DNA from: Escherichia coli
GTDB taxonomy: Bacteria; Pseudomonadota; Gammaproteobacteria; Enterobacterales; Enterobacteriaceae
Length of the DNA: 64,000 nt
Assembly (NCBI RefSeq): GCF_030013205.1
Contig: NZ_CP122648.1
Strand: one strand, 5' to 3'
Positions 1,444-51,511 of this stretch are shown piece by piece (the first letter of the stretch is position 1; each line of letters begins with the position of its first letter). The position numbers and the translations under genes are program-made. Below the pieces are notes generated by a model. The model ran no database searches and was not told where the DNA came from. It was given only the letters and a program-made list of their open reading frames with translations.

Positions 1444-1494
1444 TTAGTTCCCCGTCCTGAATCTTGAGAAACAGAATTTTGTGCTGTTATTCAT
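1444..1494 (-). CDS. ilvX: ilvX small peptide (16 aa)
   Basis: Minus-strand ATG AAT AAC AGC ACA AAA TTC TGT TTC TCA AGA TTC AGG ACG GGG AAC TAA = [16 protein letters not shown], immediately upstream of ilvG start. Confidence 0.6.
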
Positions 1495-1523
1495 TGTCTG
1501 CTCCTCAGTTATGTTTTTAAGGT

Positions 1524-1558
1524 CAAAAAAAACCCCCGGACCTTTCGGTGCGGGGGTC
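1524..1558 (-). terminator. ilvL attenuator terminator (GC-rich hairpin followed by U-run on minus strand)
   Basis: Plus strand aaaaaaaacccccggacctttcggtgcggggg; on the minus strand this is a cccccgcacc..ggtccggggg hairpin followed by eight U, located between ilvL and ilvX. Confidence 0.7.
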
Positions 1559-1580
1559 TTAGTTCGTTAAGGCTTGATCT

Positions 1581-1679
1581 CTAAGCCTTTCCTCGTCCAA
1601 GTGCAGCCCCGCACGGTGGGATAATAATCACCACCACGCTAATCACGACCAGGCTAATCACTCGTAGAAGGACTGTCAT
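1581..1679 (-). CDS. ilvL: ilvGMEDA leader peptide
   Basis: Minus-strand ORF translating MTVLLRVISLVVISVVVIIIPPCGAALGRGKA (Ile/Val/Leu-rich leader); stop TAG at 1581-1583. Confidence 0.8.
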   Translation of the reverse strand: MTVLLRVISLVVISVVVIIIPPCGAALGRGKA

Positions 1680-2031
1680 TTTGTCTTTTCTTGCATCTTG
1701 TTCGAAGGAATGCCTAAAGAGTTACCATAGATTTTGCGAATAGCACAAGATATTTTTTGGCCTATTTTTATGATGTCTTTAATAATTTCAAGAGAAATTG
1801 TTGTTTTTTAAAAAGAAAATAGTGAGTGAAAAAAATTCAATTTCAGTATGAATGTTGTTCCCTTCCTCGTAGTTCATCCTTTGCCCGCTGCATTTTTGCG
1901 AGCATCATTCCACCGCCAGAACAACTCAACTTCACTTACACAAATAAACCGGAATCAGCCACTAAAATTCACGAATTAGCGGGCTACAGCAGCGATATCT
2001 TATGCACATAATGGTGACTCAAGGAGGGCTT

Positions 2032-2211
2032 ATGTCACTGTCAATTGTTCATACCCGCGCAGCCCTGGGAGTAAATGCGCCCCCAATCACTGTTGAGGTA
2101 CATATCAGTAAAGGTCTACCCGGCTTAACGATGGTGGGCTTACCAGAAACAACGGTAAAAGAAGCCCGCGATCGCGTGCGCAGCGCCATTATCAATAGCG
2201 GATTTTTATAA
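2032..2211 (+). pseudogene. comM: comM (yifB) 5' fragment, truncated by island insertion after codon ~57
   Basis: Translation MSLSIVHTRAALGVNAPPITVEVHISKGLPGLTMVGLPETTVKEARDRVRSAIINSGF then diverges (L, stop) at the junction; the rest of the gene resumes at 16913. Confidence 0.85.
2194..2203. repeat. attL core copy (aatagcggat)
   Basis: Identical 10-mer at 16907..16916; lies at the exact point where the comM frame breaks. Confidence 0.5.
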
Positions 2212-2300
2212 ATTAGTGTTTTTTGCTGTTTCATAATGTGCCACGTTGTTCATTATGTTTTTGATTTTTAAGTCTATTACAATTTTCATTGTTCCAGCTT

Positions 2301-2353
2301 GTTCCACGTTGTACCCCTTTGTGCAATGATCGGTGTAGTCACTGGTGTAGTCA
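2301..2353. repeat. Subterminal left repeat (gttccacgttgt ... cggtgtagtcactggtgtagtca), candidate integrase arm-type site
   Basis: Imperfect ~55-bp direct repeat of 16781..16838 near the opposite island end. Confidence 0.45.
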
Positions 2354-2391
2354 TTTTTTTTGCAAACAGGGGAGGAAATGTGAGCAGAGCA

Positions 2392-3609
2392 ATGAACAAA
2401 CTGAGCGACACATTGTTAAGAAAACTTCATGGTAAGCCGGCGGAGAAAAATACGTTTTATAGCGATGGCGGAAATCTGAGCGTGAAATATTTAACATCAG
2501 GGAAATTGACCTGGTATTTCACTTACAGGGCGGGAACGGGAAGGGGTACACCACCGGAACGCCTGAAGCTGGGAAATTATCCTGATCTGAGCCTGAAAGC
2601 AGCCAGGGAAAAAGCAGCACAGTGTCGCGCATGGCTGGCAGAAGGAAAAAATCCACGCCATGAGCTTAATTACTCCATACAGGAAGCACTAAAGCCGGTA
2701 ACGGTGGGCGATGCGATCAGCTACTGGCTGGAAATGCACGTAAAGGAAAACCGTGTCGATTACGTATGCCTGAAAAGCCGCCTTAATAATCACGTCATAC
2801 AGCATATTGGCAATATGCCACTGGATAAATGCGAGTTACGTCACTGGCTGGCCTGTTTTGACCGGATACGCAAAAAATCACCCGTAACATCTGGCCACAT
2901 GATGCAGGCGTGTAAACAGGCGCTTAAGTTCTGCCGTAAACGTCGCTACGCAGTCAGTAACGTTCTGGATGATCTCAACGTGGTGGACGTTGGCAAAAAG
3001 CCGGGCATAAGCGAACGCGTGCTGAGCAACAAAGAACTGAGCGAATTATTACAGGCGCTGGATAAAAAAATATTCCCGCCCTACTACAGCGCACTAATCC
3101 GCCTCCTGATTGTGTTCGGCTGCCGGACCGGAGAACTGAGGCTGTCGGAGATCAGGGAGTGGGATTTTAAGGAAATGCTCTGGACAGTACCGAAAGAGCA
3201 CAGCAAAACGAAGGTCGCCATATTCAGGCCAATACCGGAAAGCATTTTGCCGTTCGTCACACAGCTGGTGGAGCAGAACAGGCACACAGGGCTATTACTC
3301 GGGGAACTGAAACAGGAAGCCAGCGTGTCGCAATACGGCAGATTCACGCACAAAAAATTAAACCATCCGCACTGGTCACTACACGATATACGGCGCACGT
3401 TTACCACGATGCTGAACGATTTAGGCGTGGATCCACATATTGTCGAACAACTCACCGCTCACCAGATGCCAGGGATGCAACGAGTCTATAACCACTCCCG
3501 TTATATCGATGCGAAACGTAATGCGCTGGATATGTGGACAGAGCGATTAGAGATACTGGCAGGTGCTCACGAAAACGTAACCACACTGCCAATAGCCAGA
3601 GAAATATAA
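2392..3609 (+). CDS. int: Tyrosine recombinase / phage integrase
   Basis: ORF 2299..3609; likely start ATG 2392 (MNKLSDT) after GGGAGGA at 2368-2376; C-terminal HDIRRTF...VYNHSRY region consistent with a tyrosine-recombinase catalytic domain; abuts attL. Confidence 0.85.
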   Translation: MNKLSDTLLRKLHGKPAEKNTFYSDGGNLSVKYLTSGKLTWYFTYRAGTGRGTPPERLKLGNYPDLSLKAAREKAAQCRAWLAEGKNPRHELNYSIQEALKPVTVGDAISYWLEMHVKENRVDYVCLKSRLNNHVIQHIGNMPLDKCELRHWLACFDRIRKKSPVTSGHMMQACKQALKFCRKRRYAVSNVLDDLNVVDVGKKPGISERVLSNKELSELLQALDKKIFPPYYSALIRLLIVFGCRTGELRLSEIREWDFKEMLWTVPKEHSKTKVAIFRPIPESILPFVTQLVEQNRHTGLLLGELKQEASVSQYGRFTHKKLNHPHWSLHDIRRTFTTMLNDLGVDPHIVEQLTAHQMPGMQRVYNHSRYIDAKRNALDMWTERLEILAGAHENVTTLPIAREI

Positions 3610-3627
3610 TTTTTTTCGCGATTTTTC

Positions 3628-3690
3628 AGAACGGACACAACGTGAAACAACGAGACACAACGACGAACAACGGCGAACAATCTGGAACAA
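3628..3690 (+). repeat. Array of six ~10-bp direct repeats (RAACAACG family) downstream of int
   Basis: acacaacg tgaaacaacg agacacaacg acgaacaacg gcgaacaatc tggaacaaac read directly from sequence. Confidence 0.4.
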
Positions 3691-3976
3691 ACTTGATTAT
3701 CATCTGACCGACACCCTAAAAAGTTGATTTTCAGTCGTTTTACTGGCTTTTTGTACATTGGCGAATCACTCTTAAAAACATGTAAAAAAGGCGTAAAAAC
3801 AGAATTTTACGCTACCGCATCACAATGAATTAAAAGAGTTTTTATTCTCATTACCCCACTTCTGTAAAACGACCGCCACCAGTGTTTGCCATTCCATAAA
3901 CACCCTGACACAATCCGACCCAACCCAACCCAATAATCCACCCAATGACTCTTTAAGAAACAACAAAGGGGGAATT

Positions 3977-4165
3977 GTGTTAAGCACAGATCGCTTTATA
4001 CGTGAAAAAGAATGTCAGCAACTTACAGGCCTGAGCCGTTCATGCCGCTACCGCCTGGAAAAAGCCGGACAATTCCCATCACGGCGTAAACTCGGTGGTC
4101 GTTCCGTTGGCTGGTCTTTATCCGAAGTTCTGGCATGGAAGGACAGCCGCGAGGCAGTTCACTAA
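3977..4165 (+). CDS. alpA: AlpA-family phage transcriptional regulator (62 aa)
   Basis: GTG start after AAAGGGGGA; translation LTGLSRSCRYRLEKAGQFPSRRKLGGRSVGWSLSEVLAW resembles the AlpA/prophage CP4-57 regulator HTH. Confidence 0.7.
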   Translation: MLSTDRFIREKECQQLTGLSRSCRYRLEKAGQFPSRRKLGGRSVGWSLSEVLAWKDSREAVH

Positions 4166-4217
4166 TCAGGCTGGCGGCACACAGCCGCCTCCCATCCACT
4201 AATACAGAGATTTAACC

Positions 4218-5018
4218 ATGAATACTGGATATACGCCTGTACAGGGGCGGGGCTTCGTTCGGCCTGAAAAACAGAATCTGCAAAATTTCGCTGAAATTAT
4301 TCCGGTTATTTCCGGCGTTATTGGTGGGCGTGAAACCACTATTGTTAGCGCCAGAGCGTTACATAAGGCGTTAGGTGTAGGGCGCGTTTTCCGTTCGTGG
4401 ATCAAGGGGCGCATTGAAGAATACGGGTTCACGGAAGGCGTGGATTATGAGGTTGTTGAATATTTGAGCCGACCCGATCCGGTGAGCGCAAAATCTCGCC
4501 AGCAAACCGCTCTTGAGTACATCATCACAGTGAACATGGCGAAAGAACTGGCGATGGTCGAACGTACCGAACAGGGCCGCGCCGTTCGCCAGTACTTTAT
4601 CAAATGCGAGGAGGAGCTACACAAGGTAGCGCCAGTGCGTTCCGCAGCGTTACGCCGGGAACTGAAAGCCCGTATCACCGTTGCCAGCTACTTTAAGCCA
4701 ATGTGTGCCGCGCTGGAGGCGTACCGGGCTGAACTGGGTAAAAACACGTTCCAGCACCACTACACCACGGAAGCCAATATGCTGGCGCGTATCGTGCTGG
4801 GTGGCATGACTGCAAAACAGTGGGCGCAGGCGAACGGCATCACAGGCGAACCACGCGACCACATGAGCACGTTGCAGCTTGAGCACCTTTCTTACCTTGA
4901 GCAGAGCAATATCACGCTGATTGAGTTAGGCCAGGGCTACCACCAGCGGAAAGCTGAATTAATTCGTCTTTCGCAGCGTTGGTTAGCCCGTCGCATGGAG
5001 GAAAACAGCCATGTGTAA
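4218..5018 (+). CDS. Phage antirepressor-like protein (266 aa)
   Basis: N-terminal ...TIVSARALHKALGVGRVFRSWIKGRIEEYGFTEGVDYEV resembles Bro-N/Rha/ORF6N-type antirepressor domains (recollection, unverified). Confidence 0.55.
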   Translation: MNTGYTPVQGRGFVRPEKQNLQNFAEIIPVISGVIGGRETTIVSARALHKALGVGRVFRSWIKGRIEEYGFTEGVDYEVVEYLSRPDPVSAKSRQQTALEYIITVNMAKELAMVERTEQGRAVRQYFIKCEEELHKVAPVRSAALRRELKARITVASYFKPMCAALEAYRAELGKNTFQHHYTTEANMLARIVLGGMTAKQWAQANGITGEPRDHMSTLQLEHLSYLEQSNITLIELGQGYHQRKAELIRLSQRWLARRMEENSHV

Positions 5019-5414
5019 CGCTCTGACCGTTACAAAAAGAGAAAGCGCCCCGTTGCCGGAGCGCCTTTGTGAACGAATAGCCTACTGCGCCATATTGCTT
5101 ACTGTCTACGAGGCAGATTATAGCGTTGTGGTCGCACAGAGTGAAGGCGCTGATCACCGTTACTACAGCACGCCAGAAATGCAGAATATTTTGCTGCAAA
5201 ATGCCGTTGGTCACGCCGTCCGGAAAGCAAAAAATTTTGCTGGTGGCGCGACTGATGCGATTTTGTCAGGTCGCCAGGTGCTGATCAATCTGATGTCTGA
5301 TTTCGTTCTGGATAAAACAAAGGCGACCGCAGAGGGTCGCCAGTGGGTATTACGGCAAATCAAACTTGAACGCATCACCAACAATGCCACATTTGCGGCT
5401 GGTGGGCAATGTGA

Positions 5415-5603
5415 TCAGTCAGATTTGGTTCGTTCCAGGGTTTGCAACGAGAGCTTTTTCCTGCGCTCTTTAAGGAATTTCTCAAGAGCAAACGAACAAG
5501 GTGCGAATCTTTCTGATTCATGCTCTATCTTTCTGCGCCGTCTTTTCCGTGTCGGTGATAATGTTTTGGTCAATTCTTTATCGGTCATTGTGTTGTCCTG
5601 CAT
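5415..5603 (-). CDS. Small basic hypothetical protein (62 aa)
   Basis: Minus-strand ORF with Arg/Lys-rich segment TRKRRRRKIEHESERF; downstream of the RHH gene on the same strand; no clear SD. Confidence 0.35.
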   Translation of the reverse strand: MQDNTMTDKELTKTLSPTRKRRRRKIEHESERFAPCSFALEKFLKERRKKLSLQTLERTKSD

Positions 5604-5645
5604 AGCAATGCGCCGTAGTTACTCACACCACGGCGCTGATAGTGA

Positions 5646-5843
5646 TTATTCTGATTCTTTGGCCTTCCGGCGCTGTTCATATTTTAATTTGCGTCCACAG
5701 GCATCTAAGACCCATGCGGAAAAATTAGCACTAGGATTAGTTAATTTTTCTTGTTCAACGCTGGCATCAATCCCATCTATAAGCTCATGTGGGAATCGAA
5801 TATTTTTCTTTGCTGATTTGTTGTTTGTGTTACCGCTAGACAT
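5646..5843 (-). CDS. Ribbon-helix-helix (CopG/Arc-like) putative repressor (65 aa)
   Basis: KKNIRFPHELIDGIDASV (beta strand) followed by NFSAWVLDACGRKL (helix) pattern; GAGG SD 7 nt upstream; start abuts the palindromic operator cluster. Confidence 0.55.
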   Translation of the reverse strand: MSSGNTNNKSAKKNIRFPHELIDGIDASVEQEKLTNPSANFSAWVLDACGRKLKYEQRRKAKESE

Positions 5844-5870
5844 TGATGCACCTCACTTAAATGGACTTTA

Positions 5871-5951
5871 TGGGCGCACACAATACAGCAAAAAAAATGA
5901 GATGTTAAGTATTGACATGTGCGCACACATGATTTTAATCTGTGCGCACAG
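5871..5951. promoter_or_regulatory. Divergent promoter/operator region with three TGTGCGCACA palindromes
   Basis: tgggcgcaca 5871-5880, tgtgcgcaca 5918-5927, ctgtgcgcacag 5940-5951; TTGACA at 5912-5917 with a 17-bp spacer and ttaatc as candidate -10, so operators sit in the spacer and just downstream. Confidence 0.5.
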
Positions 5952-6048
5952 TTTGAGTTTTGTCACTCAAATTAAGCAACGCCCCGCAGTGCTCGCAACA
6001 CATGCAGGGCGTCTAACCACCAACGATAGCAAGAGTATCGAGGTAGCT

Positions 6049-6252
6049 ATGAGAAATCATACCACACACCCGCAAGGGCGGGACTCGCACAACCTGAATA
6101 AATATATCTGGCGTTTTATCGCCCTGAGCACCGCACAACCGCGCGTGATTCACATCGTGGCCACCAGCGAACAGGAAGCACGCCAGCAATCTCCTGATGG
6201 CTGCGTGATGGTATTCGCTGCCCGTATTCGTCAGGGGGTAAGTCATGCATAA
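6049..6252 (+). CDS. Hypothetical small protein (67 aa), first gene of early operon
   Basis: Internal ATG of the long stop-free frame, preceded by GAGGTAG; 3' end overlaps the next start (ATG 6245). Confidence 0.4.
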   Translation: MRNHTTHPQGRDSHNLNKYIWRFIALSTAQPRVIHIVATSEQEARQQSPDGCVMVFAARIRQGVSHA

Positions 6253-6610
6253 CCTGTCAATTTCTGACCTTAACTGCATTCAGTTTGACGAGAAATTTAC
6301 CGGGCAGCTACTGGTCCATGTGGAGAACGGGCGCATAGTGCGTAATTACCACCTGCCGGATGGTGCAATTGCCGGAAGTGTTGAAGCATTGCTGGAACTG
6401 GCAGAGCGTGCGCGACTGATTAATCCGTCAACGTGCTATCACGATGATGATCTGCATTTTACCGGACGCATGGTGAGCCATTATGAAAACGGCGTTGAGG
6501 TATCCCGCGAACGTATGCGTGATGATTGCTGTTTCGGCACACTGCCGGAATTTATCGAGTTGCTGACCAGTTGCGGTTATCAGGTTATTCAGGGGGTGAA
6601 TTATGGATAA
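6245..6610 (+). CDS. Hypothetical protein (121 aa) with two copies of a ~50-aa repeat module
   Basis: FTGQLLVHVENGRIV...GSVEALLELAERA and FTGRMVSHYENGVEV...GTLPEFIELLTSCG within one ORF; overlaps neighbours at both ends. Confidence 0.6.
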   Translation: MHNLSISDLNCIQFDEKFTGQLLVHVENGRIVRNYHLPDGAIAGSVEALLELAERARLINPSTCYHDDDLHFTGRMVSHYENGVEVSRERMRDDCCFGTLPEFIELLTSCGYQVIQGVNYG

Positions 6611-6803
6611 TCAGCAAGCAACAATGACAATTACCCTGAGTGCGCCAGATGATTTCACCGGACGCATACTGGTTTACCTGGATAAAGGAAAAGTGAAATC
6701 ACAATGCCGACTGAAAAGTAATGAGATTGTTGGTTCTCCTGAATTTTTTTCTGAACTCTGTATTCGTGCGGAAATAAAACCGGAACTGCTGACAGGAAAA
6801 TAA
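6603..6803 (+). CDS. Hypothetical protein (66 aa), single copy of the same repeat module
   Basis: FTGRILVYLDKGKV...GSPEFFSELCIRAEI; start overlaps the previous stop. Confidence 0.6.
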   Translation: MDNQQATMTITLSAPDDFTGRILVYLDKGKVKSQCRLKSNEIVGSPEFFSELCIRAEIKPELLTGK

Positions 6804-6807
6804 AACC

Positions 6808-7098
6808 ATGAAAAAGAAAAATTCTGGCTTTACTGCCAGCGGCCTCTCTCGGCCTGAAATCCGCCCCGGTGATATTTTCCGGGACACCAGACGCGGGGGA
6901 CGGGTGGTTATTCGTCACGTTACGCCAGGCAATATCACCTACCGCCGTGAGGCTTACGAATATGACTGCGTAATGCCGCGCCGTCAGTTTGATCGTGATT
7001 TTATTCTGGTGGAAAACAAACAACTGGCAGTGGCGAGACGTGCAGCCACGAATATTAAAAAAATCCGGGCAATGTTGGTTGCGGGAGGTAAGAAGTGA
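6808..7098 (+). CDS. Hypothetical basic protein (96 aa)
   Basis: ORF with stop overlapping the GTG start of the helicase gene (GTGA at 7095-7098). Confidence 0.5.
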   Translation: MKKKNSGFTASGLSRPEIRPGDIFRDTRRGGRVVIRHVTPGNITYRREAYEYDCVMPRRQFDRDFILVENKQLAVARRAATNIKKIRAMLVAGGKK

Positions 7099-8507
7099 AA
7101 AACGCACCGAGTCTAAAATATCAGCCGAAGGATAAATTCACTGAGGTAATCATTTTTGCCGGGACGGATGCTTACGCCCATGCTCAACACTGGATTGAAA
7201 GTGAAGGACGAAAACACGGCGATAACGTGCCTCCTGTTTACCTGGGGCCAAAGCAACTGGCAGACCTGGCGAATATCCGCATTATTGACGAGAAACGCCG
7301 TTTTGCGCGTGTCTATATCGCGGGGGAGATAGAGCCAATCCAGATCAATACTATCGCTGAAAAGCTGGCGCTGGCTGGCGTACAGGAGGCGAAATTATAC
7401 AAAGGTATCACCGACCAGGAACCGGAGAACTGGCGCGACTACCTGCAACGGATCCGCGAACAGGCTGAGCGCGAAGAAATGCTTACTGACGAGCAATACA
7501 GCCAGCGAAAAACCACGCTACCAATGAGCATTGGATCGGAAGGATACGATTCACAGCTTAGCTATGTGGTTAAGGGTGTGATTCCGGCTAATTCGTTGTG
7601 CAGCACATACGGTGCGAGCGGTTCTTATAAGTCGTTCCTTGCGTGTTCGTGGGCGTGTCATGTTGCTACCGGTATCCCGTGGGGAGGTCGCAGGGTTGTA
7701 CATGGTGCGGTGATGTATGTCGTTGGTGAGGGCGGGATCGGTGTTCCTCGTCGTATCAAGGCATGGGAACTGGTGAACAGTGAGCAGGTGAAAAATCTGT
7801 ACCTGGTAAATCGTCCAATTTTTCCGGCCGCACCGAGTGATGTTGATGAAATGGTTATTGCTGCCCGACAGGTTGAGCAGGAAACGGGTAAACCTGTACG
7901 CATGATTATTCTGGATACTCTGGCGCGTTGCTTTGGTGGCAGCGATGAAAATGATGCGCGGGATATGGGGGCATTTGTCCATGGATGTGACGAACTGAAA
8001 CGGCGTACAGGCGCTACAGTGCTGGTAATTCACCATTCCGGCAAGGATGAAACAAAGGGTGCGCGCGGTTCCAGTGCGTTTCGTGCAGCACTGGATGCAG
8101 AGTACCGGATACGCCGTGAAGGTGCAGGCAGTGAAGCCCTGGTTATCGCATGTACCAAGATGAAGGATGCGGAGGAACTGAAAGAAATGGCTTGCGATTT
8201 GCGCGAGGTTGAGCTTTTCAAGGATGAAGGCGGGGAGTTAATCACGTCATTGGTGCTGGAGGATAAGCCCCGTCCGCCAGTTGAACTGGAGCGCATCGAG
8301 TACGCTGCTAACAAGACAGAGAATCACGTCGCGCTATGGGGCTGTATCCGTTCACGCACGCAACGCGGAGATAAATGCACTATCCCGTTGTTGCGCGATG
8401 ACATGAAAAAGCTGGGGTATGAGATGAAACACTTCCGGCGCTGGCTGTACAAGCTGGAAGGTGACGGCGTAATCACTATTGACGGTGATGACGTGCGCCC
8501 ACTGTAA
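7095..8507 (+). CDS. Replication helicase/primase-like protein, RecA-fold (AAA_25/RepA-like) ATPase (470 aa)
   Basis: GASGSYKSF Walker-A-like motif, MIILDTLARCFGG and LVIHHSGKDETKGARGSSAF motifs typical of RepA/DnaB-like helicases; iterons immediately downstream. Confidence 0.65.
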   Translation: MKNAPSLKYQPKDKFTEVIIFAGTDAYAHAQHWIESEGRKHGDNVPPVYLGPKQLADLANIRIIDEKRRFARVYIAGEIEPIQINTIAEKLALAGVQEAKLYKGITDQEPENWRDYLQRIREQAEREEMLTDEQYSQRKTTLPMSIGSEGYDSQLSYVVKGVIPANSLCSTYGASGSYKSFLACSWACHVATGIPWGGRRVVHGAVMYVVGEGGIGVPRRIKAWELVNSEQVKNLYLVNRPIFPAAPSDVDEMVIAARQVEQETGKPVRMIILDTLARCFGGSDENDARDMGAFVHGCDELKRRTGATVLVIHHSGKDETKGARGSSAFRAALDAEYRIRREGAGSEALVIACTKMKDAEELKEMACDLREVELFKDEGGELITSLVLEDKPRPPVELERIEYAANKTENHVALWGCIRSRTQRGDKCTIPLLRDDMKKLGYEMKHFRRWLYKLEGDGVITIDGDDVRPL

Positions 8508-19680: not shown

Positions 19681-19756
19681 TGGCAGGGGCGGAGAGACTC
19701 GAACTCCCAACACCCGGTTTTGGAGACCGGTGCTCTACCAATTGAACTACGCCCCT
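19681..19756 (-). tRNA. trpT: tRNA-Trp
   Basis: Reverse complement reads AGGGGCGTAGTTCAATTGGTAGAGCACCGGTCTCCAAAACCGG...GCCCCTGCCA. Confidence 0.92.
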
Positions 19757-19764
19757 AATTAGGG

Positions 19765-19841
19765 TGGCGGAACGGACGGGACTCGAACCCGCGACCCCCT
19801 GCGTGACAGGCAGGTATTCTAACCGACTGAACTACCGCTCC
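19765..19841 (-). tRNA. aspT: tRNA-Asp
   Basis: Reverse complement reads GGAGCGGTAGTTCAGTCGGTTAGAATACCTGCCTGTCACGCAGG...CCGCCA. Confidence 0.92.
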
Positions 19842-19893
19842 ACCGAATTCTTTTACAACCACCGGTTTTATGACCGGCTTACTGCTTAATTTG

Positions 19894-20013
19894 ATGCCTG
19901 GCAGTTCCCTACTCTCGCATGGGGAGACCCCACACTACCATCGGCGCTACGGCGTTTCACTTCTGAGTTCGGCATGGGGTCAGGTGGGACCACCGCGCTA
20001 AGGCCGCCAGGCA
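19894..20013 (-). rRNA. rrfC: 5S ribosomal RNA
   Basis: 120 nt; reverse complement begins TGCCTGGCGGCC and ends AACTGCCAGGCAT. Confidence 0.92.
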
Positions 20014-20105
20014 AATTCTGTTTCATCAGACCGCTTCTGCGTTCTGATTTAATCTGTATCAGGCTGAAAATCTTCTCTCATCCGCCAAAACATCTTCGGC
20101 GTTGT

Positions 20106-23010
<2,905 letters not shown>

Positions 23011-23203
23011 TCACAACCCGAAGATGTTTCTTTCGATTCATCATCGTGTTGCGAAAATTTGAGAGACTCACGAACAACTTTCGTTGTTCAGTGTTTCAAT
23101 TTTCAGCTTGATCCAGATTTTTAAAGAGCAAATATCTCAAACATCACCCGAAGATGAGTTTTGAGATATCAAGGCAGGTGACTTTCACTCACAAACCAGC
23201 AAG

Positions 23204-23279
23204 TGGCGTCCCCTAGGGGATTCGAACCCCTGTTACCGCCGTGAAAGGGCGGTGTCCTGGGCCTCTAGACGAAGGGGAC
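23204..23279 (-). tRNA. gltU: tRNA-Glu (16S-23S spacer)
   Basis: Reverse complement reads GTCCCCTTCGTCTAGAGGCCCAGGACACCGCCCTTTCACGGCGG...GGGACGCCA. Confidence 0.92.
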
Positions 23280-23364
23280 GTGTCAGTCTGCTTCGCAAGA
23301 CGCCTTGCTTTTCACTTTCTATCAGACAATCTGTGTGAGCACTTCAAAGAACGCTTCTTTAAGG

Positions 23365-24906
<1,542 letters not shown>

Positions 24907-51215: not shown

Positions 51216-51511
51216 GCGTTGCCCCGTCCTGAATAGCGTTCACATAGATCCTGCTGATATAAAACACCCTGTTTTCCCGTTTATTCATTGATCGAAATAA
51301 GAGCAAAAACATCCACCTGACGCTTAAATGAAGGTATTGCCTTATTTTTCTGCAGACAAAAGGCGTGACGATGGTCGAAAATGGCGCTTTCGTCAGCGGG
51401 GATAATCCGTTATTGAACAATTTATCCTCTGTCCATTTCACGATGAAAAAAATGTAGTTTTTTCAAGGTGAAGCGGTTTAAATTCGTTCTCAAATTACAG
51501 TCAGGACGCGT

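What the first reader, a model, noticed from the sequence alone, without database searches (positions are those of the whole stretch)
5844..6048. Compact genetic switch: three TGTGCGCACA palindromes between an RHH repressor gene and the replication operon
A perfect 10-bp palindrome occurs at 5918-5927 and 5941-5950 (extended to ctgtgcgcacag), with a one-mismatch copy at 5871-5880. The two perfect copies sit in the spacer of a TTGACA-17 bp-TTAATC promoter-like element and just downstream of it, facing the early operon that ends in the helicase. The third overlaps the likely promoter of the divergent ribbon-helix-helix gene. This looks like the island's master repressor and operators, the point where a helper phage would have to act to induce it.
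Basis: seen in the sequence. Interest (0 to 1): 0.55.

Follow-up and report, generated by a model that had tools for sequence, protein, structure and literature searches.

The report
Satellite-island repressor switch with antisense RNA
The three palindromes are very probably the operators of a small, previously uncharacterised repressor (YlcI/DUF3950) that shuts off the replication genes of a phage-satellite island. The same 200 bases also appear to encode a small antisense RNA, and they lie inside a long reading frame that lets upstream transcripts be translated straight through the switch.

Summary
TGTGCGCACA occurs exactly at 5918 and 5941 and with one mismatch at 5871, and nowhere else exactly in 64 kb.

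- **Repressor.** The 65-aa gene is a YlcI/YnfO (DUF3950) protein with a ribbon-helix-helix fold.
- **Conserved layout.** In 77 related loci (Enterobacterales, Pasteurella, Orbaceae) the layout is kept: a -35 TTGACR, a 12-mer xTG-N6-CAx abutting it (O1), a second 23 bp downstream over the -10 and start site (O2), and a third about 47 bp upstream on the ylcI -10 (O3).
- **Co-variation.** The central 6 bp change together within a locus. They co-vary with the 12 residues before IRFP in YlcI (Mantel r 0.5-0.57, p<=0.0005). They do not co-vary with the rest of YlcI, the flanking spacers or the next gene.

Two layers were missed.

- **Antisense RNA.** The "leader" hairpins belong to a minus-strand transcript: a roughly 78-nt antisense RNA over the ribosome-binding site of the Icd-like gene, resembling SymR and R1162 RNAs.
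- **Long ORF.** The whole switch, including ylcI in antisense, lies in a stop-free plus-strand ORF (5011-6252) that ends in the Icd-like gene. This is the phage P4 eta/kil arrangement.

The element is therefore a protein-plus-antisense-RNA variant of the P4/PICI immunity region. Nothing here has been tested experimentally.

The parts
5646..5843 (-). ylcI: 65-aa YlcI/YnfO (DUF3950) protein, predicted ribbon-helix-helix repressor
5870..5881 (.). O3: ATGGGCGCACAC (core 5871-5880, one mismatch to the palindrome). It overlaps the -10 and start site of the ylcI promoter and is the predicted autoregulatory site.
   Evidence: A site is kept 46-47 bp from O1 in 30 of 42 unique loci. It is closer to its own O1 than to other loci's O1 (3.21 vs 2.46 of 6, p=0.015).
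5880..5908 (-). P(ylcI): -35 TTAACA (5908-5903), 17-bp spacer, -10 TATTGT (5885-5880)
   Evidence: Promoter scan. Relatives carry TATAGT/TATACA-type hexamers at the same place.
5912..5941 (+). P(R), the rightward early promoter: -35 TTGACA (5912-5917), -10 TAATCT (5936-5941, 18-bp spacer) or TTTAAT (5934-5939)
   Evidence: Sequence. TTGACR is fixed in nearly all relatives, with TAAGGT/TAATGT/TATGGT 18 bp downstream. The simple scan did not call this promoter.
5917..5928 (.). O1: ATGTGCGCACAC (palindrome core 5918-5927). It fills the -35/-10 spacer of P(R).
   Evidence: A position-anchored 12-mer xTG-N6-CAx is present in all loci. It co-varies with the YlcI N-terminal segment (r 0.51, p 0.0002).
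5940..5951 (.). O2: CTGTGCGCACAG (core 5941-5950). It overlaps the end of the -10 and the start site of P(R).
   Evidence: Spacing to O1 is 23 bp in 35 of 42 unique loci. Identity of the central 6 bp to the locus's own O1 is 4.79, against 2.34 to other loci's (p 9e-8).
5952..5971 (+). Short hairpin, TTTGAGT-N6-ACTCAAA, directly after O2. Its role is unknown; it could be a 5' mRNA stem.
   Evidence: RNA fold. Relatives have analogous CTTG...CAAG hairpins at the same place.
5970..6049 (-). Predicted cis-antisense RNA of about 78 nt. It comprises the anti-SD hairpin (complement of 6024-6040), a single-stranded stretch (complement of CUAACCACCAAC), the terminator hairpin (5979-6012) and a U-rich tail. 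It covers the SD (6040-6043) and the start codon of the Icd-like gene.
   Evidence: 13 of 17 pairs show compensatory changes, and 88% of cells are paired against 34-42% when slid. There are 54 A.C cells against 4 G.U cells on the + strand. The hairpin is more stable as minus-strand RNA in 28 of 29 sequences, and the tail has 5.4 against 1.4 U in 10 nt. Weak Rfam hits: RF00043 at 18.4 bits here and 26 bits in L010, and SymR at 34.6 bits on the antisense strand in L006.
6056..6064 (-). Candidate promoter of the antisense RNA: extended -10 TGgTATGAT, read on the minus strand
   Evidence: A TAnnnT hexamer lies exactly 4 or 10 nt before the complement of the start codon in 47 of 50 unique loci. This is a consensus match only.
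6049..6252 (+). Icd-like (P4 Kil-like) 67-aa gene, the first gene translated from P(R)
   Evidence: NF033153, 71.8 bits. phrog_6196/1743. Weak direct similarity to P4 Kil (E 0.05). P4 Kil sequence.
5011..6252 (+). Eta-like long ORF (413 codons), in frame with and ending at the Icd-like gene. It runs through the antisense of orf62 and ylcI, all three operators, both promoters and the antisense-RNA region. Its ATG overlaps the stop of the upstream antA/B gene.
   Evidence: A stop-free frame is present in 50 of 50 unique loci, against about 0.02 expected per locus for the intergenic part alone. Coupling-type overlaps with the upstream gene are seen. The N-terminal part has no Pfam or PHROG match.
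6245..8507 (+). Rest of the early operon: two phrog_340 ORFs, a DUF4222 protein and a RepA-family helicase (7095-8507)

Best explanation
The interval is the immunity/early-control region of a P4/PICI-type satellite island inserted in yifB (comM). It appears to work in three layers.

1. **Repressor and operators (inferred from co-variation).** YlcI, a ribbon-helix-helix dimer, reads the 12-bp sites xTG-N6-CAx with its N-terminal arm and beta-strand. Residues about 4-6, 12 and 14 would read the variable centre. The invariant R16 would plausibly read the invariant TG/CA, though that step is my inference. O1 fills the spacer of the rightward promoter and O2 covers its -10 end and start site, so bound YlcI would exclude RNA polymerase from the Icd-like-to-helicase operon. 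O3, the weakest site, covers the -10 and start of ylcI itself and would give negative autoregulation.

2. **Antisense RNA (inferred from structure conservation).** A constitutive antisense RNA of about 78 nt starts at the first codons of the Icd-like gene and ends at the hairpin/U-run just before O2. It would pair with the SD and start codon of any P(R) transcript that escapes repression. That would block translation and probably expose the transcript to termination or decay.

3. **Read-through bypass (by analogy with P4).** Transcripts coming from upstream (int-alpA-ant side) carry the long eta-like ORF. Ribosomes translating it would cross the operators and the antisense-RNA target, making such transcripts insensitive to layer 2. 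This is how P4 late-promoter transcripts escape CI-RNA immunity.

What the sequence shows directly is the sites, their positions and the open frame. Binding, transcription starts, the existence of the RNA and the bypass are all inferred. The stated confidence (0.7) applies to layer 1, the core claim. My estimates for the other layers are about 0.7 for layer 2 and about 0.55 for layer 3.
For: **Sites and positions.**

**RHH fold.**
- NF041551 and DUF3950 match.
- The monomer model has pLDDT 75.
- The tandem model has pTM 0.67 and forms a strand at 10-18 in each copy; the two strands have no other partner than each other.

**Conserved architecture.** Seen in 77 loci from Serratia to Orbus/Gilliamella and Pasteurella, and in the packaged 16.5-kb element vB_KppS-Ant.

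**Specificity co-variation.**
- Operator similarity against the YlcI N-terminal 12 aa: r 0.57 (0.51 with position-anchored O1 only), p<=0.0005.
- Against the YlcI C-terminus: -0.03.
- Against the Icd-like protein: 0.05.
- Against the spacers: 0.14-0.29.
- Partial r, controlling for all spacers: 0.59.
- The N-terminal segment against the 5'UTR that lies between it and the operators: -0.003.
- Re-assortment: L002/L003 and L059/L060 share YlcI and operators but carry different Icd-like genes, and one Icd-like type occurs with four operator types.
- Mutual information peaks between residues 4-6, 12 and 14 and operator positions 4-9.

**Antisense RNA.**

**Long ORF.**. For the P4 parallel, searches show eta at 8168-8812 with Kil as its C-terminal 65 aa, and PMC10111431 gives the mechanism.
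Against: - There are no binding, transcription-start or RNA-abundance data.
- The Mantel tests treat loci as exchangeable. Shared descent inflates significance, although the contrast with the physically closer spacers argues against simple linkage.
- Several different arm sequences (KKN, KKG, KKY) go with the same operator, and ATKG goes with two operators, so the recognition code is not simple.
- The simple scans call neither P(R) nor the antisense terminator.
- The Rfam matches to SymR and R1162 are all below gathering scores.
- The N-terminal 340 residues of the long ORF match no protein family, so its product may have no function of its own.
- O3 is only weakly concerted with O1 (p 0.015).
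Confidence: 0.7

Rival explanations
1. The palindromes are binding sites for some other protein (a host regulator, the helper phage's repressor, AlpA, or the Icd-like protein that PHROGs labels 'transcriptional repressor'). YlcI would merely be a neighbour.
For: No direct binding data exist. phrog_6196/1743 carry the label 'transcriptional repressor'. CTGT...ACAG superficially recalls LexA half-sites.
Against: - The site centre differs from locus to locus and tracks the YlcI N-terminal segment only. It does not track the Icd-like protein (r 0.05). A host factor could not follow such changes across genera.
- The PHROG label traces to the obsolete P4 'cI' ORF, which is Kil/Eta.
- The 4-bp spacing between CTGT and ACAG does not fit the E. 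coli LexA box CTGT-N8-ACAG (my own knowledge).
Confidence: 0.08
2. YlcI is the RHH antitoxin of a small toxin-antitoxin pair with the downstream 62-aa ORF (5415-5603). The palindromes would only autoregulate that pair.
For: RHH antitoxins dominate the structural hits. There is a weak HicB-like Pfam trace. A conserved small ORF follows ylcI in the window (phrog_21027).
Against: - The 62-aa ORF is found only in close E. coli relatives and is absent from the rest of the family.
- The two best sites lie on the divergent promoter, not on ylcI's own.
- The ylcI-switch-Icd-like unit is what is conserved.
Confidence: 0.04
3. The repeats are iterons of the island's replication origin, recognised by the helicase/initiator rather than by a transcription factor.
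For: The repeated 10-12-mers have helical-turn-like spacing and lie next to a replication operon. PICI and P4 origins do contain short repeats (P4 ori repeats are annotated).
Against: - Each site is locked to a promoter element: it abuts the -35 or overlaps a -10, and this holds in every locus.
- There are only three sites.
- Co-variation is with YlcI. Co-variation with the helicase was not tested.
- PICI origins are described downstream of the primase gene (PMC10111431).
Confidence: 0.04
4. The stop-free plus-strand frame is a by-product of the amino-acid and codon composition of the minus-strand genes and of conserved regulatory DNA. It is never translated, and the switch is a plain intergenic switch.
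For: - The antisense register is the one in which third codon positions coincide. In it, stops arise only next to Tyr, His or Gln codons of ylcI, so some openness comes for free (my derivation).
- The N-terminal part of the ORF matches no protein family.
Against: - The intergenic part alone is open in 43 of 50 loci in the Icd frame, and in a different single frame in the remaining 7. Other frames carry 4-6 stops, and shuffles are open about 2% of the time.
- The spacers and operators have diverged too far for this to be inherited by chance.
- Start codons overlap the upstream stop (ATGA/TAATG) in about 20 loci.
- P4 has the same nested arrangement with demonstrated translation (PMC10111431 citing Forti 1999).
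Confidence: 0.15

Closest known systems
Phage P4 immunity region (PLE promoter inside eta, nested kil, CI RNA/seqA; Forti et al. 1999, as summarised in PMC10111431)
   Same: - The position in the element is the same: after int/alpA and the Bro-type genes, and before the replication operon.
- An early promoter lies inside a long ORF that starts upstream and is coupled to the preceding gene.
- The first gene after the promoter is a roughly 65-aa Icd/Kil-like protein in frame with, and ending, the long ORF.
- An RNA targets the translation start region of that small gene.
   Different: - P4 has no protein repressor. Its immunity factor is the sense-strand CI RNA (Rfam C4) acting on seqA/seqC.
- C4, isrK and c4-a1b1 are found in P4 but not here.
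- Here a divergent RHH gene with three operators sits antisense inside the long ORF, and the RNA is a true cis-antisense transcript.
Lambda OR (three operators between divergent PRM and PR)
   Same: Three related sites lie between back-to-back promoters: two on the lytic/early promoter and one on the repressor's own promoter. Neighbouring sites are about 23 bp apart. Specificity comes in 'immunity types' that differ between relatives.
   Different: The repressor is a 65-aa RHH protein, not an HTH protein with a cleavable C-terminal domain. No Cro counterpart was identified. O3 lies 47 bp, not 23 bp, from its neighbour. There is no evidence for RecA-dependent induction.
RHH phage/plasmid repressors (P22 Arc and Mnt, CopG of pMV158, omega of pSM19035)
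   Same: These are small beta-alpha-alpha dimers that read short palindromic or repeated sites overlapping promoters and autoregulate. CopG, like this switch, works together with a roughly 50-80-nt countertranscript on a replication operon.
   Different: There is no detectable sequence similarity; YlcI belongs to its own family, DUF3950. The predicted 12-bp unit with invariant TG/CA ends and a variable centre, and the involvement of the N-terminal arm, are inferred here and have not been demonstrated.
SymR (antisense to symE) and the R1162/RSF1010 75-nt countertranscript (RF01809, RF00043)
   Same: The length is similar (about 75-78 nt). Both start within the first codons of the target gene and cover the start codon and SD. 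Both have an anti-SD hairpin, a single-stranded stretch and a terminator hairpin. The UAACCACCAAC motif is shared with RF00043. In R1162 the target operon also encodes a RepA helicase.
   Different: Scores are far below the gathering thresholds (18-35 bits against 55-61), so membership is not established. The target gene here is Icd/Kil-like, not symE or repA.
SaPI Stl master repressor
   Same: A repressor is transcribed divergently from the island's excision/replication operon and keeps the island silent.
   Different: Stl proteins are HTH proteins relieved by helper-phage anti-repressors. No such partner is known here. Gram-negative PICIs are described as AlpA-activated rather than Stl-repressed (PMC6092414 and PMC10111431 were listed; the AlpA point is my reading plus my own knowledge).

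Membership tests
YlcI/YnfO family (NF041551; Pfam DUF3950) | Match to the family HMM above the curated cutoff | tested here: met
   NF041551 scores 59 bits against a cutoff of 30. PF13132 has E 1.6e-6. phrog_949 has E 1e-27.
Ribbon-helix-helix (Arc/MetJ/CopG) superfamily | beta-alpha-alpha topology with a short N-terminal strand | tested here: met
Ribbon-helix-helix (Arc/MetJ/CopG) superfamily | Dimer held by an intersubunit two-stranded antiparallel sheet | tested here: inconclusive
   In the linker-joined tandem model each copy has one strand, and DSSP calls both E, which requires them to pair with each other (pTM 0.67). Coordinates were not inspected, and a fused chain is a surrogate for a real dimer.
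Ribbon-helix-helix (Arc/MetJ/CopG) superfamily | Sequence-specific DNA binding through the sheet | not testable with these tools
   Support is indirect only: residues 12 and 14 (outward-facing strand positions) and 4-6 co-vary with the operator centre.
P4-type immunity region | Small Icd/Kil-like gene as the first gene after the early promoter | tested here: met
   NF033153 scores 71.8 bits. The gene is present in 67 of 77 loci, 125-150 nt after the -35. P4 Kil is the C-terminal 65 aa of ORF 8168-8812. Direct BLASTP to the window protein gives only E 0.05.
P4-type immunity region | Longer in-frame ORF (eta) that starts upstream of the early promoter and is coupled to the preceding gene | tested here: met
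   The ORF is 5011-6252. A frame is open in 50 of 50 unique loci. ATGA/TAATG overlaps with the upstream gene are seen. Translation itself was not tested.
P4-type immunity region | CI RNA (Rfam C4) and its seqA target (isrK / c4-a1b1) inside eta | tested here: not met
   There are no C4, isrK or c4-a1b1 matches in the window at gathering threshold, nor at E<=10 in 5500-6400. The P4 positive control gives 74.9, 60.8 and 44.1 bits.
SymR / R1162-like cis-antisense RNAs | Rfam covariance-model score at or above gathering | tested here: not met
   RF00043 scores 18.4 bits (window) and 26 bits (L010) against 55. RF01809 scores 34.6 bits (L006, antisense strand) against 61.
SymR / R1162-like cis-antisense RNAs | Roughly 75-nt transcript antisense to the SD and start codon, ending in an intrinsic terminator | tested here: inconclusive
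   The structure is conserved with compensatory changes. The G.U asymmetry, stability and U-tail all point to the minus strand. A -10 hexamer is fixed in 47 of 50 loci. There are no expression data, and the simple terminator scan is negative.
Gram-negative PICI / P4-like satellites | Ordered zones: int-AlpA, Bro-type/immunity, replication, accessory/late; size about 10-17 kb; inserted at a specific site | tested here: met
   The RefSeq annotation shows a 14.7-kb insert splitting yifB, with int, an HTH(AlpA-like) gene, AntA/B, Icd-like, RepA helicase and PerC. The zones are described in PMC10111431.
Gram-negative PICI / P4-like satellites | Induction and packaging by a helper phage | not testable with these tools
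   The evidence is circumstantial only: vB_KppS-Ant, a 16.5-kb element with the same switch, was deposited as an 'induced prophage'.

The most novel reading that the evidence does not exclude
DUF3950 (YlcI/YnfO; also present in lambda and Stx phages) is a new family of RHH immunity repressors with many operator specificities. In satellites, its gene, its operators and a SymR-like antisense RNA are all embedded inside a translated 'eta-like' ORF on the opposite strand. The same 600 bp would then encode a repressor on one strand and, on the other, a ribosome track whose translation overrides both the repressor's roadblock region and the antisense RNA when upstream (helper-triggered) transcription arrives. 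This would be a three-layer switch with antisense-overlapping, functionally opposed reading frames.
Probability: 0.45. Interest if true: 0.72.

Novelty: new variant of a known kind. Interest (0 to 1): 0.6.

Why it matters
- **Function for an uncharacterised family.** It gives a testable function (operator-specific RHH repressor) to a family with no characterised member. I found no functional study of YlcI, YnfO or DUF3950 in the searchable literature. The family includes two E. coli K-12 y-genes and a lambda ORF.
- **Alternative immunity module.** It shows that many Gram-negative satellite islands (PICI, cfPICI and P4-like; Enterobacterales, Pasteurellaceae, Orbaceae) carry a different module at the place where P4 keeps its RNA-only immunity: protein plus antisense RNA.
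- **Readable specificity types.** The immunity types can be read from the sequence. This could predict which islands cross-repress one another, and it supplies a natural set of orthogonal repressor/operator pairs.
- **Annotation corrections.** It corrects two recurring errors. 'Icd-like pseudogene' is really a fragment of the long ORF. The 'transcriptional repressor' label on Kil/Icd-like proteins is inherited from the obsolete P4 cI ORF.
- **Selection for dual-strand coding.** The strict maintenance of an open frame antisense to a repressor gene and across its operators is an unusually clear case of selection for dual-strand coding, or for translation as such.

Tried and rejected
- **Rfam at gathering threshold over the whole window.** Nothing in the interval. 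At E<=10 there was only a chance mir-27 match, caused by the two palindromes pairing with each other, and the weak R1162 hit.
- **RNA hairpin formed by O1+O2.** Rejected. O1 lies upstream of the start site, and in loci where the two sites are direct repeats of an asymmetric sequence (for example L024, GTGGGTTCACAC twice) no hairpin can form.
- **RNAalifold on the raw MAFFT alignment.** It recovered only 8 pairs. The lower stem had to be specified by hand and was then tested by pair counting.
- **PDB sequence profile search with the YlcI alignment.** No hit, even at E 10.
- **Pfam and PHROGs on the 413-aa ORF and on six long ORFs from relatives.** Only the C-terminal Icd-like part matches.
- **tblastn of the Icd-like protein against phages.** It found only vB_KppS-Ant, not P4 or P1.
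- **The Forti et al. 1999 paper** is not held. I relied on its summary in PMC10111431 and on my own recollection.
- **Literature searches** for YlcI/YnfO/DUF3950, 'Icd-like', and PICI plus ribbon-helix-helix gave no description of this switch.
- **Simple promoter/terminator scans** on L010 and L024 did not call the antisense terminator or P(R). The hairpin has internal loops that the scan does not allow.
- **The 62-aa ORF as a conserved partner of YlcI.** Rejected.
- **My first ORF-picking scripts** for the Icd-like gene were too crude and were replaced by an HMM-based pick.
Full report
**1. Where we are**

The window is an E. coli chromosome that is 100% identical over 5600-6300 to strain ETEC4079. 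RefSeq annotation of that strain shows a 14.7-kb insert, about 2205-16900 in window coordinates, that splits yifB/comM. In order it carries:
- a tyrosine integrase;
- an AlpA-like HTH gene (3977-4165);
- an AntA/AntB-type gene (4218-5018);
- an 'Icd-like pseudogene' (5293-5650);
- a YlcI/YnfO family gene on the opposite strand (5646-5843);
- an Icd-like gene (6049-6252);
- three small ORFs and a RepA-family helicase (7095-8507);
- ProQ/FinO, PerC, NUDIX and other genes.

This is the zone order described for Gram-negative PICI/P4-like satellites: integration, Bro/immunity, replication, accessory (PMC10111431). A PerC-bearing E. coli PICI of similar build is described in PMC11773190.

**2. The observation**

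The palindrome TGTGCGCACA is exact at 5918-5927 and 5941-5950 and has one mismatch at 5871-5880. The number of matches with up to one mismatch in the window (4) is about what shuffles give (3.2). The clustering of three within 80 bp is not.

- TTGACA (5912-5917) abuts the first copy.
- The second copy follows a -10-like TAATCT/TTTAAT (5934-5941).
- The third touches TATTGT, the -10 of a TTAACA-17-TATTGT promoter that points at ylcI.

**3. The protein**

The 65-aa product matches NF041551 (YlcI_YnfO_N) and Pfam DUF3950. I found no functional study of the family.

The alignment of 39 homologues shows the pattern K-x-IRFP-HELI-x-x-ID...NFSAWVLDAC, which reads as a short strand followed by two helices.
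- An AlphaFold monomer (pLDDT 75) has helices 19-35 and 41-63 after an extended N-terminus.
- A linker-joined tandem built on a self-concatenated alignment gives strand 10-18, helix 19-32 and helix 41-61 in both halves (pTM 0.67). Each half has a single strand, so the two strands can only pair with each other, as in an RHH dimer.

**4. Comparative test of the operator idea**

I collected 25 loci from one-genome-per-species contigs and 52 from viral contigs.

*Architecture.* Every locus keeps the same layout:
- a -35 TTGACR;
- a 12-mer xTG-N6-CAx starting at its last base (O1);
- a second copy 23 bp downstream in 35 of 42 unique loci (the others at 22, 24, 26, 33 or 34 bp);
- a third copy 46-47 bp upstream in 30 of 42, overlapping the -10 of the ylcI promoter.

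The outer TG/CA(C) are nearly invariant. The six central bases differ between loci but agree within a locus. Examples are TGTGCGCACA here and in Rahnella, GTGGGTGCACAC, GTGTATATGCAC, GTGTTTAAACAC, GTGCCCCAACAC, GTGTGGCCGCAC and TGTGCGGACA.

*Concerted change, using fixed offsets only.*

| Comparison (central 6 bp) | Same locus | Loci of another type | p |
|---|---|---|---|
| O1 vs the 12-mer at +23 | 4.79 of 6 | 2.34 of 6 | 9e-8 |
| O1 vs the 12-mer at -47 | 3.21 of 6 | 2.46 of 6 | 0.015 |

*What the operator tracks, across 42 unique loci.*

| Operator similarity compared with | Mantel r |
|---|---|
| 12 residues preceding IRFP in YlcI | 0.57 (p<=0.0005) |
| Rest of YlcI | -0.03 |
| Icd-like protein | 0.05 |
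| Transcribed leader | 0.015 |
| Three adjacent spacers | 0.14-0.29 |

Controlling for all spacers leaves r at 0.59. With position-anchored O1 alone, r is 0.51 (p 0.0002). The N-terminal segment does not correlate with the 5'UTR that physically separates it from the operators (-0.003), so linkage is not the explanation.

*Re-assortment.* L002 and L003, and L059 and L060, share YlcI and operators but have different Icd-like genes. One Icd-like type (MAMYKSTQTHPKF...) occurs with four operator types.

*Residues.* Mutual information is concentrated between residues 4-6, 12 and 14 and operator positions 4-9. Residues 12, 14 and 16 are the outward-facing positions of the predicted strand, since I15 and F17 are hydrophobic. 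R16 is invariant, as are the TG/CA ends.

*Caveat.* These are correlations on related sequences, and the code is not one-to-one: KKN, KKG and KKY all go with TGTGCGCACA.

**5. A second layer: an antisense RNA**

Between O2 and the Icd-like start all loci share two hairpins separated by CUAACCAC(C)AAC. On a 29-sequence alignment:
- 13 of 17 pairs show compensatory changes, and 88% of cells pair, against 34-42% when the partner is slid by 1-3 columns.
- The non-Watson-Crick cells are lopsided: 54 are A.C on the plus strand (that is, G.U on the minus strand) and 4 are G.U on the plus strand.
- The large hairpin is more stable as minus-strand RNA in 28 of 29 sequences (mean -20.9 against -15.8 kcal/mol).
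- On the minus strand the hairpin is followed by 5.4 U in 10 nt, against 1.4 on the plus strand.
- A TAnnnT hexamer (TATAAT, TATGAT, TATCAT, TAGACT, TATGCT) sits exactly 4 or 10 nt before the complement of the start codon in 47 of 50 unique loci. In the window it is TGgTATGAT at 6064-6056.

Together these predict a roughly 78-nt minus-strand RNA, about 6049 to 5972. It would start in the first codons of the Icd-like gene, carry CCUC in the loop or stem of its first hairpin, and end in an intrinsic terminator just short of O2.

Infernal gives only sub-threshold matches, but to the right kind of RNA: R1162-like plasmid antisense RNA (18.4 bits here, 26 bits in L010) and SymR on the antisense strand in L006 (34.6 bits, E 5e-5 locally). 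No C4/CI, isrK or c4-a1b1 element is present, whereas all three are found in P4.

**6. A third layer: the switch lies inside a long ORF**

The ORF list shows a 413-codon plus-strand ORF, 5011-6252, in frame with the Icd-like gene. It runs through the antisense of a 62-aa ORF and of ylcI, the three operators, both promoters and the antisense-RNA region. This is not a quirk of one sequence.
- In 43 of 50 unique loci the Icd-like frame has no stop anywhere in the 'intergenic' 130-230 nt. In 44 of 50 it has none in the antisense of ylcI.
- In the remaining loci a different single plus-strand frame is open through both.
- The other plus frames carry 4-6 and 3.5-3.8 stops respectively.
- Shuffled intergenic sequences are open about 2% of the time.
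- The register is the one in which third codon positions of the two strands coincide (my derivation from the coordinates).
- The open stretch usually extends 500-1400 nt. In about 20 loci it has a start codon overlapping the stop of the upstream gene (ATGA or TAATG). In the window, the ATG at 5011 overlaps the antA/B stop at 5016-5018.
- The N-terminal part matches no Pfam or PHROG family.

P4 has the same anatomy. ORF 8168-8812 (eta) overlaps the end of the alpA-like ORF88. It contains the C4/CI and seqA elements and ends with the 65-aa Kil, [26 protein letters not shown]...[22 protein letters not shown], which is clearly of the Icd-like family.

According to PMC10111431, summarising Forti et al. 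1999:
- the early promoter is internal to eta;
- Kil is the first gene translated from it;
- full-length Eta is translated only from the upstream late promoter;
- that translation prevents immunity-specific termination.

I therefore read 5011-6252 as an eta analogue and P(R) as the PLE analogue. That the long ORF is translated here is an inference.

**7. Mechanism proposed**

- In the silent island, YlcI dimers occupy O1 and O2 and exclude RNA polymerase from P(R). O3 limits ylcI expression.
- Any escaping P(R) transcript is caught at its SD and start codon by the antisense RNA.
- After a signal that drives transcription from upstream (AlpA- or helper-dependent; not identified here), ribosomes on the eta-like ORF travel through the region. 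They keep the antisense RNA off its target and the transcript protected, so the Icd-like-to-helicase operon is expressed without first removing the repressor.
- Convergent transcription would also interfere with ylcI expression.

A bypass is at least as likely.

**8. Rivals**

- *Another binding protein.* This is contradicted by the co-variation pattern.
- *A toxin-antitoxin reading.* This fails because the downstream 62-aa ORF is confined to close relatives and because the strong sites sit on the divergent promoter.
- *An iteron/origin reading.* This is unlikely because each site is locked to a promoter hexamer. Co-variation with the helicase was not tested.
- *The long ORF as a compositional by-product.* This is hard to reconcile but cannot be excluded without translation data.

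**9. Novelty and verdict**

A repressor with operators between divergent promoters is a classical device, and the eta/kil nesting is known from P4. Three things appear to be undescribed:
- the assignment of DUF3950/YlcI as an RHH immunity repressor with many sequence-readable specificities;
- its coupling with a SymR/R1162-like antisense RNA;
- the placement of the repressor gene and its operators antisense inside a maintained ORF.

The module is widespread. It occurs in 61 E. coli genomes with this exact type and in 115 protein clusters at 90% identity across Enterobacterales and beyond. It is present in vB_KppS-Ant, a cfPICI-like element deposited as an 'induced prophage', and in Pasteurella Pmp7.

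I rate it a new variant of a known kind, of moderate to good interest. Everything rests on sequence comparison.

Noticed in passing
window 5415-5603 (-), with hairpins at 5399-5386 and 5341-5322 (-): An unannotated 62-aa basic ORF (MQDNTMTDKELTKTLSPTRKRRRRK...) lies 42 bp downstream of ylcI and matches phrog_21027 (E 2e-13). It is followed by two minus-strand terminator-like hairpins. It is found only in close E. coli relatives of this island.
   Followed up: partly
window 5293-5650 (+): RefSeq calls this an 'Icd-like protein, incomplete' pseudogene. It is an internal piece of the long ORF 5011-6252. The call probably comes from similarity to long ORFs annotated elsewhere, not from gene decay.
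   Followed up: yes
L042 (IMGVR_UViG_2874945390_000001) and L035 (IMGVR_UViG_2534681673_000006), just upstream of the ylcI homologue: These are natural rearrangements between the two identical operators. L042 has O1 and O2 fused by a 23-bp deletion that removes the -10, and its Icd-like gene is also disrupted. L035 has the 23-bp operator-plus-(-10) unit duplicated, giving three tandem sites.
   Followed up: no
window 5952-5971 (+): A short hairpin, TTTGAGT-N6-ACTCAAA, lies immediately after O2, at the predicted 5' end of the P(R) transcript. Other loci have CTTG...CAAG hairpins at the same place. Its function is unknown.
   Followed up: no
L010 7042-7108, L021 4331-4399, L024 7542-7611: The int-alpA RNA (RF02996) is found above the gathering score in three related islands. 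It is not found in the window's island.
   Followed up: no
P4 (L081) 8168-8584; phrog_6196 / phrog_1743: The PHROG label 'transcriptional repressor' on Icd/Kil-like proteins appears to descend from the obsolete P4 'cI gene product' ORF. The real P4 CI is the RNA at 8420-8507. The label is misleading wherever it is propagated, for example on Pmp7_0008.
   Followed up: partly
phage collection: Lambda, lambda hybrids and many Stx-converting phages encode a YlcI homologue (43% identity) near the right end of the genome, often unannotated. I did not look at whether it has operators there.
   Followed up: no
window 12308-12317: A fourth one-mismatch copy, TGTGCGCACT, lies inside a gene of the island's accessory region. 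It is isolated and consistent with chance (3.2 such matches expected).
   Followed up: no
window 1461-1750 (-), 51271-51428 (-), 19684-24906 (-): These are ordinary chromosomal RNA features outside the island: a Rev39 5'UTR-type leader upstream of the ilv region, the sRNA STnc410, and an rRNA operon with tRNA-Glu, tRNA-Asp and tRNA-Trp.
   Followed up: no
L006 5450-5812: In Pectobacterium fontis the related island lies next to tmRNA (ssrA), a classical satellite/prophage insertion site. This contrasts with the yifB/comM site used in the window.
   Followed up: no
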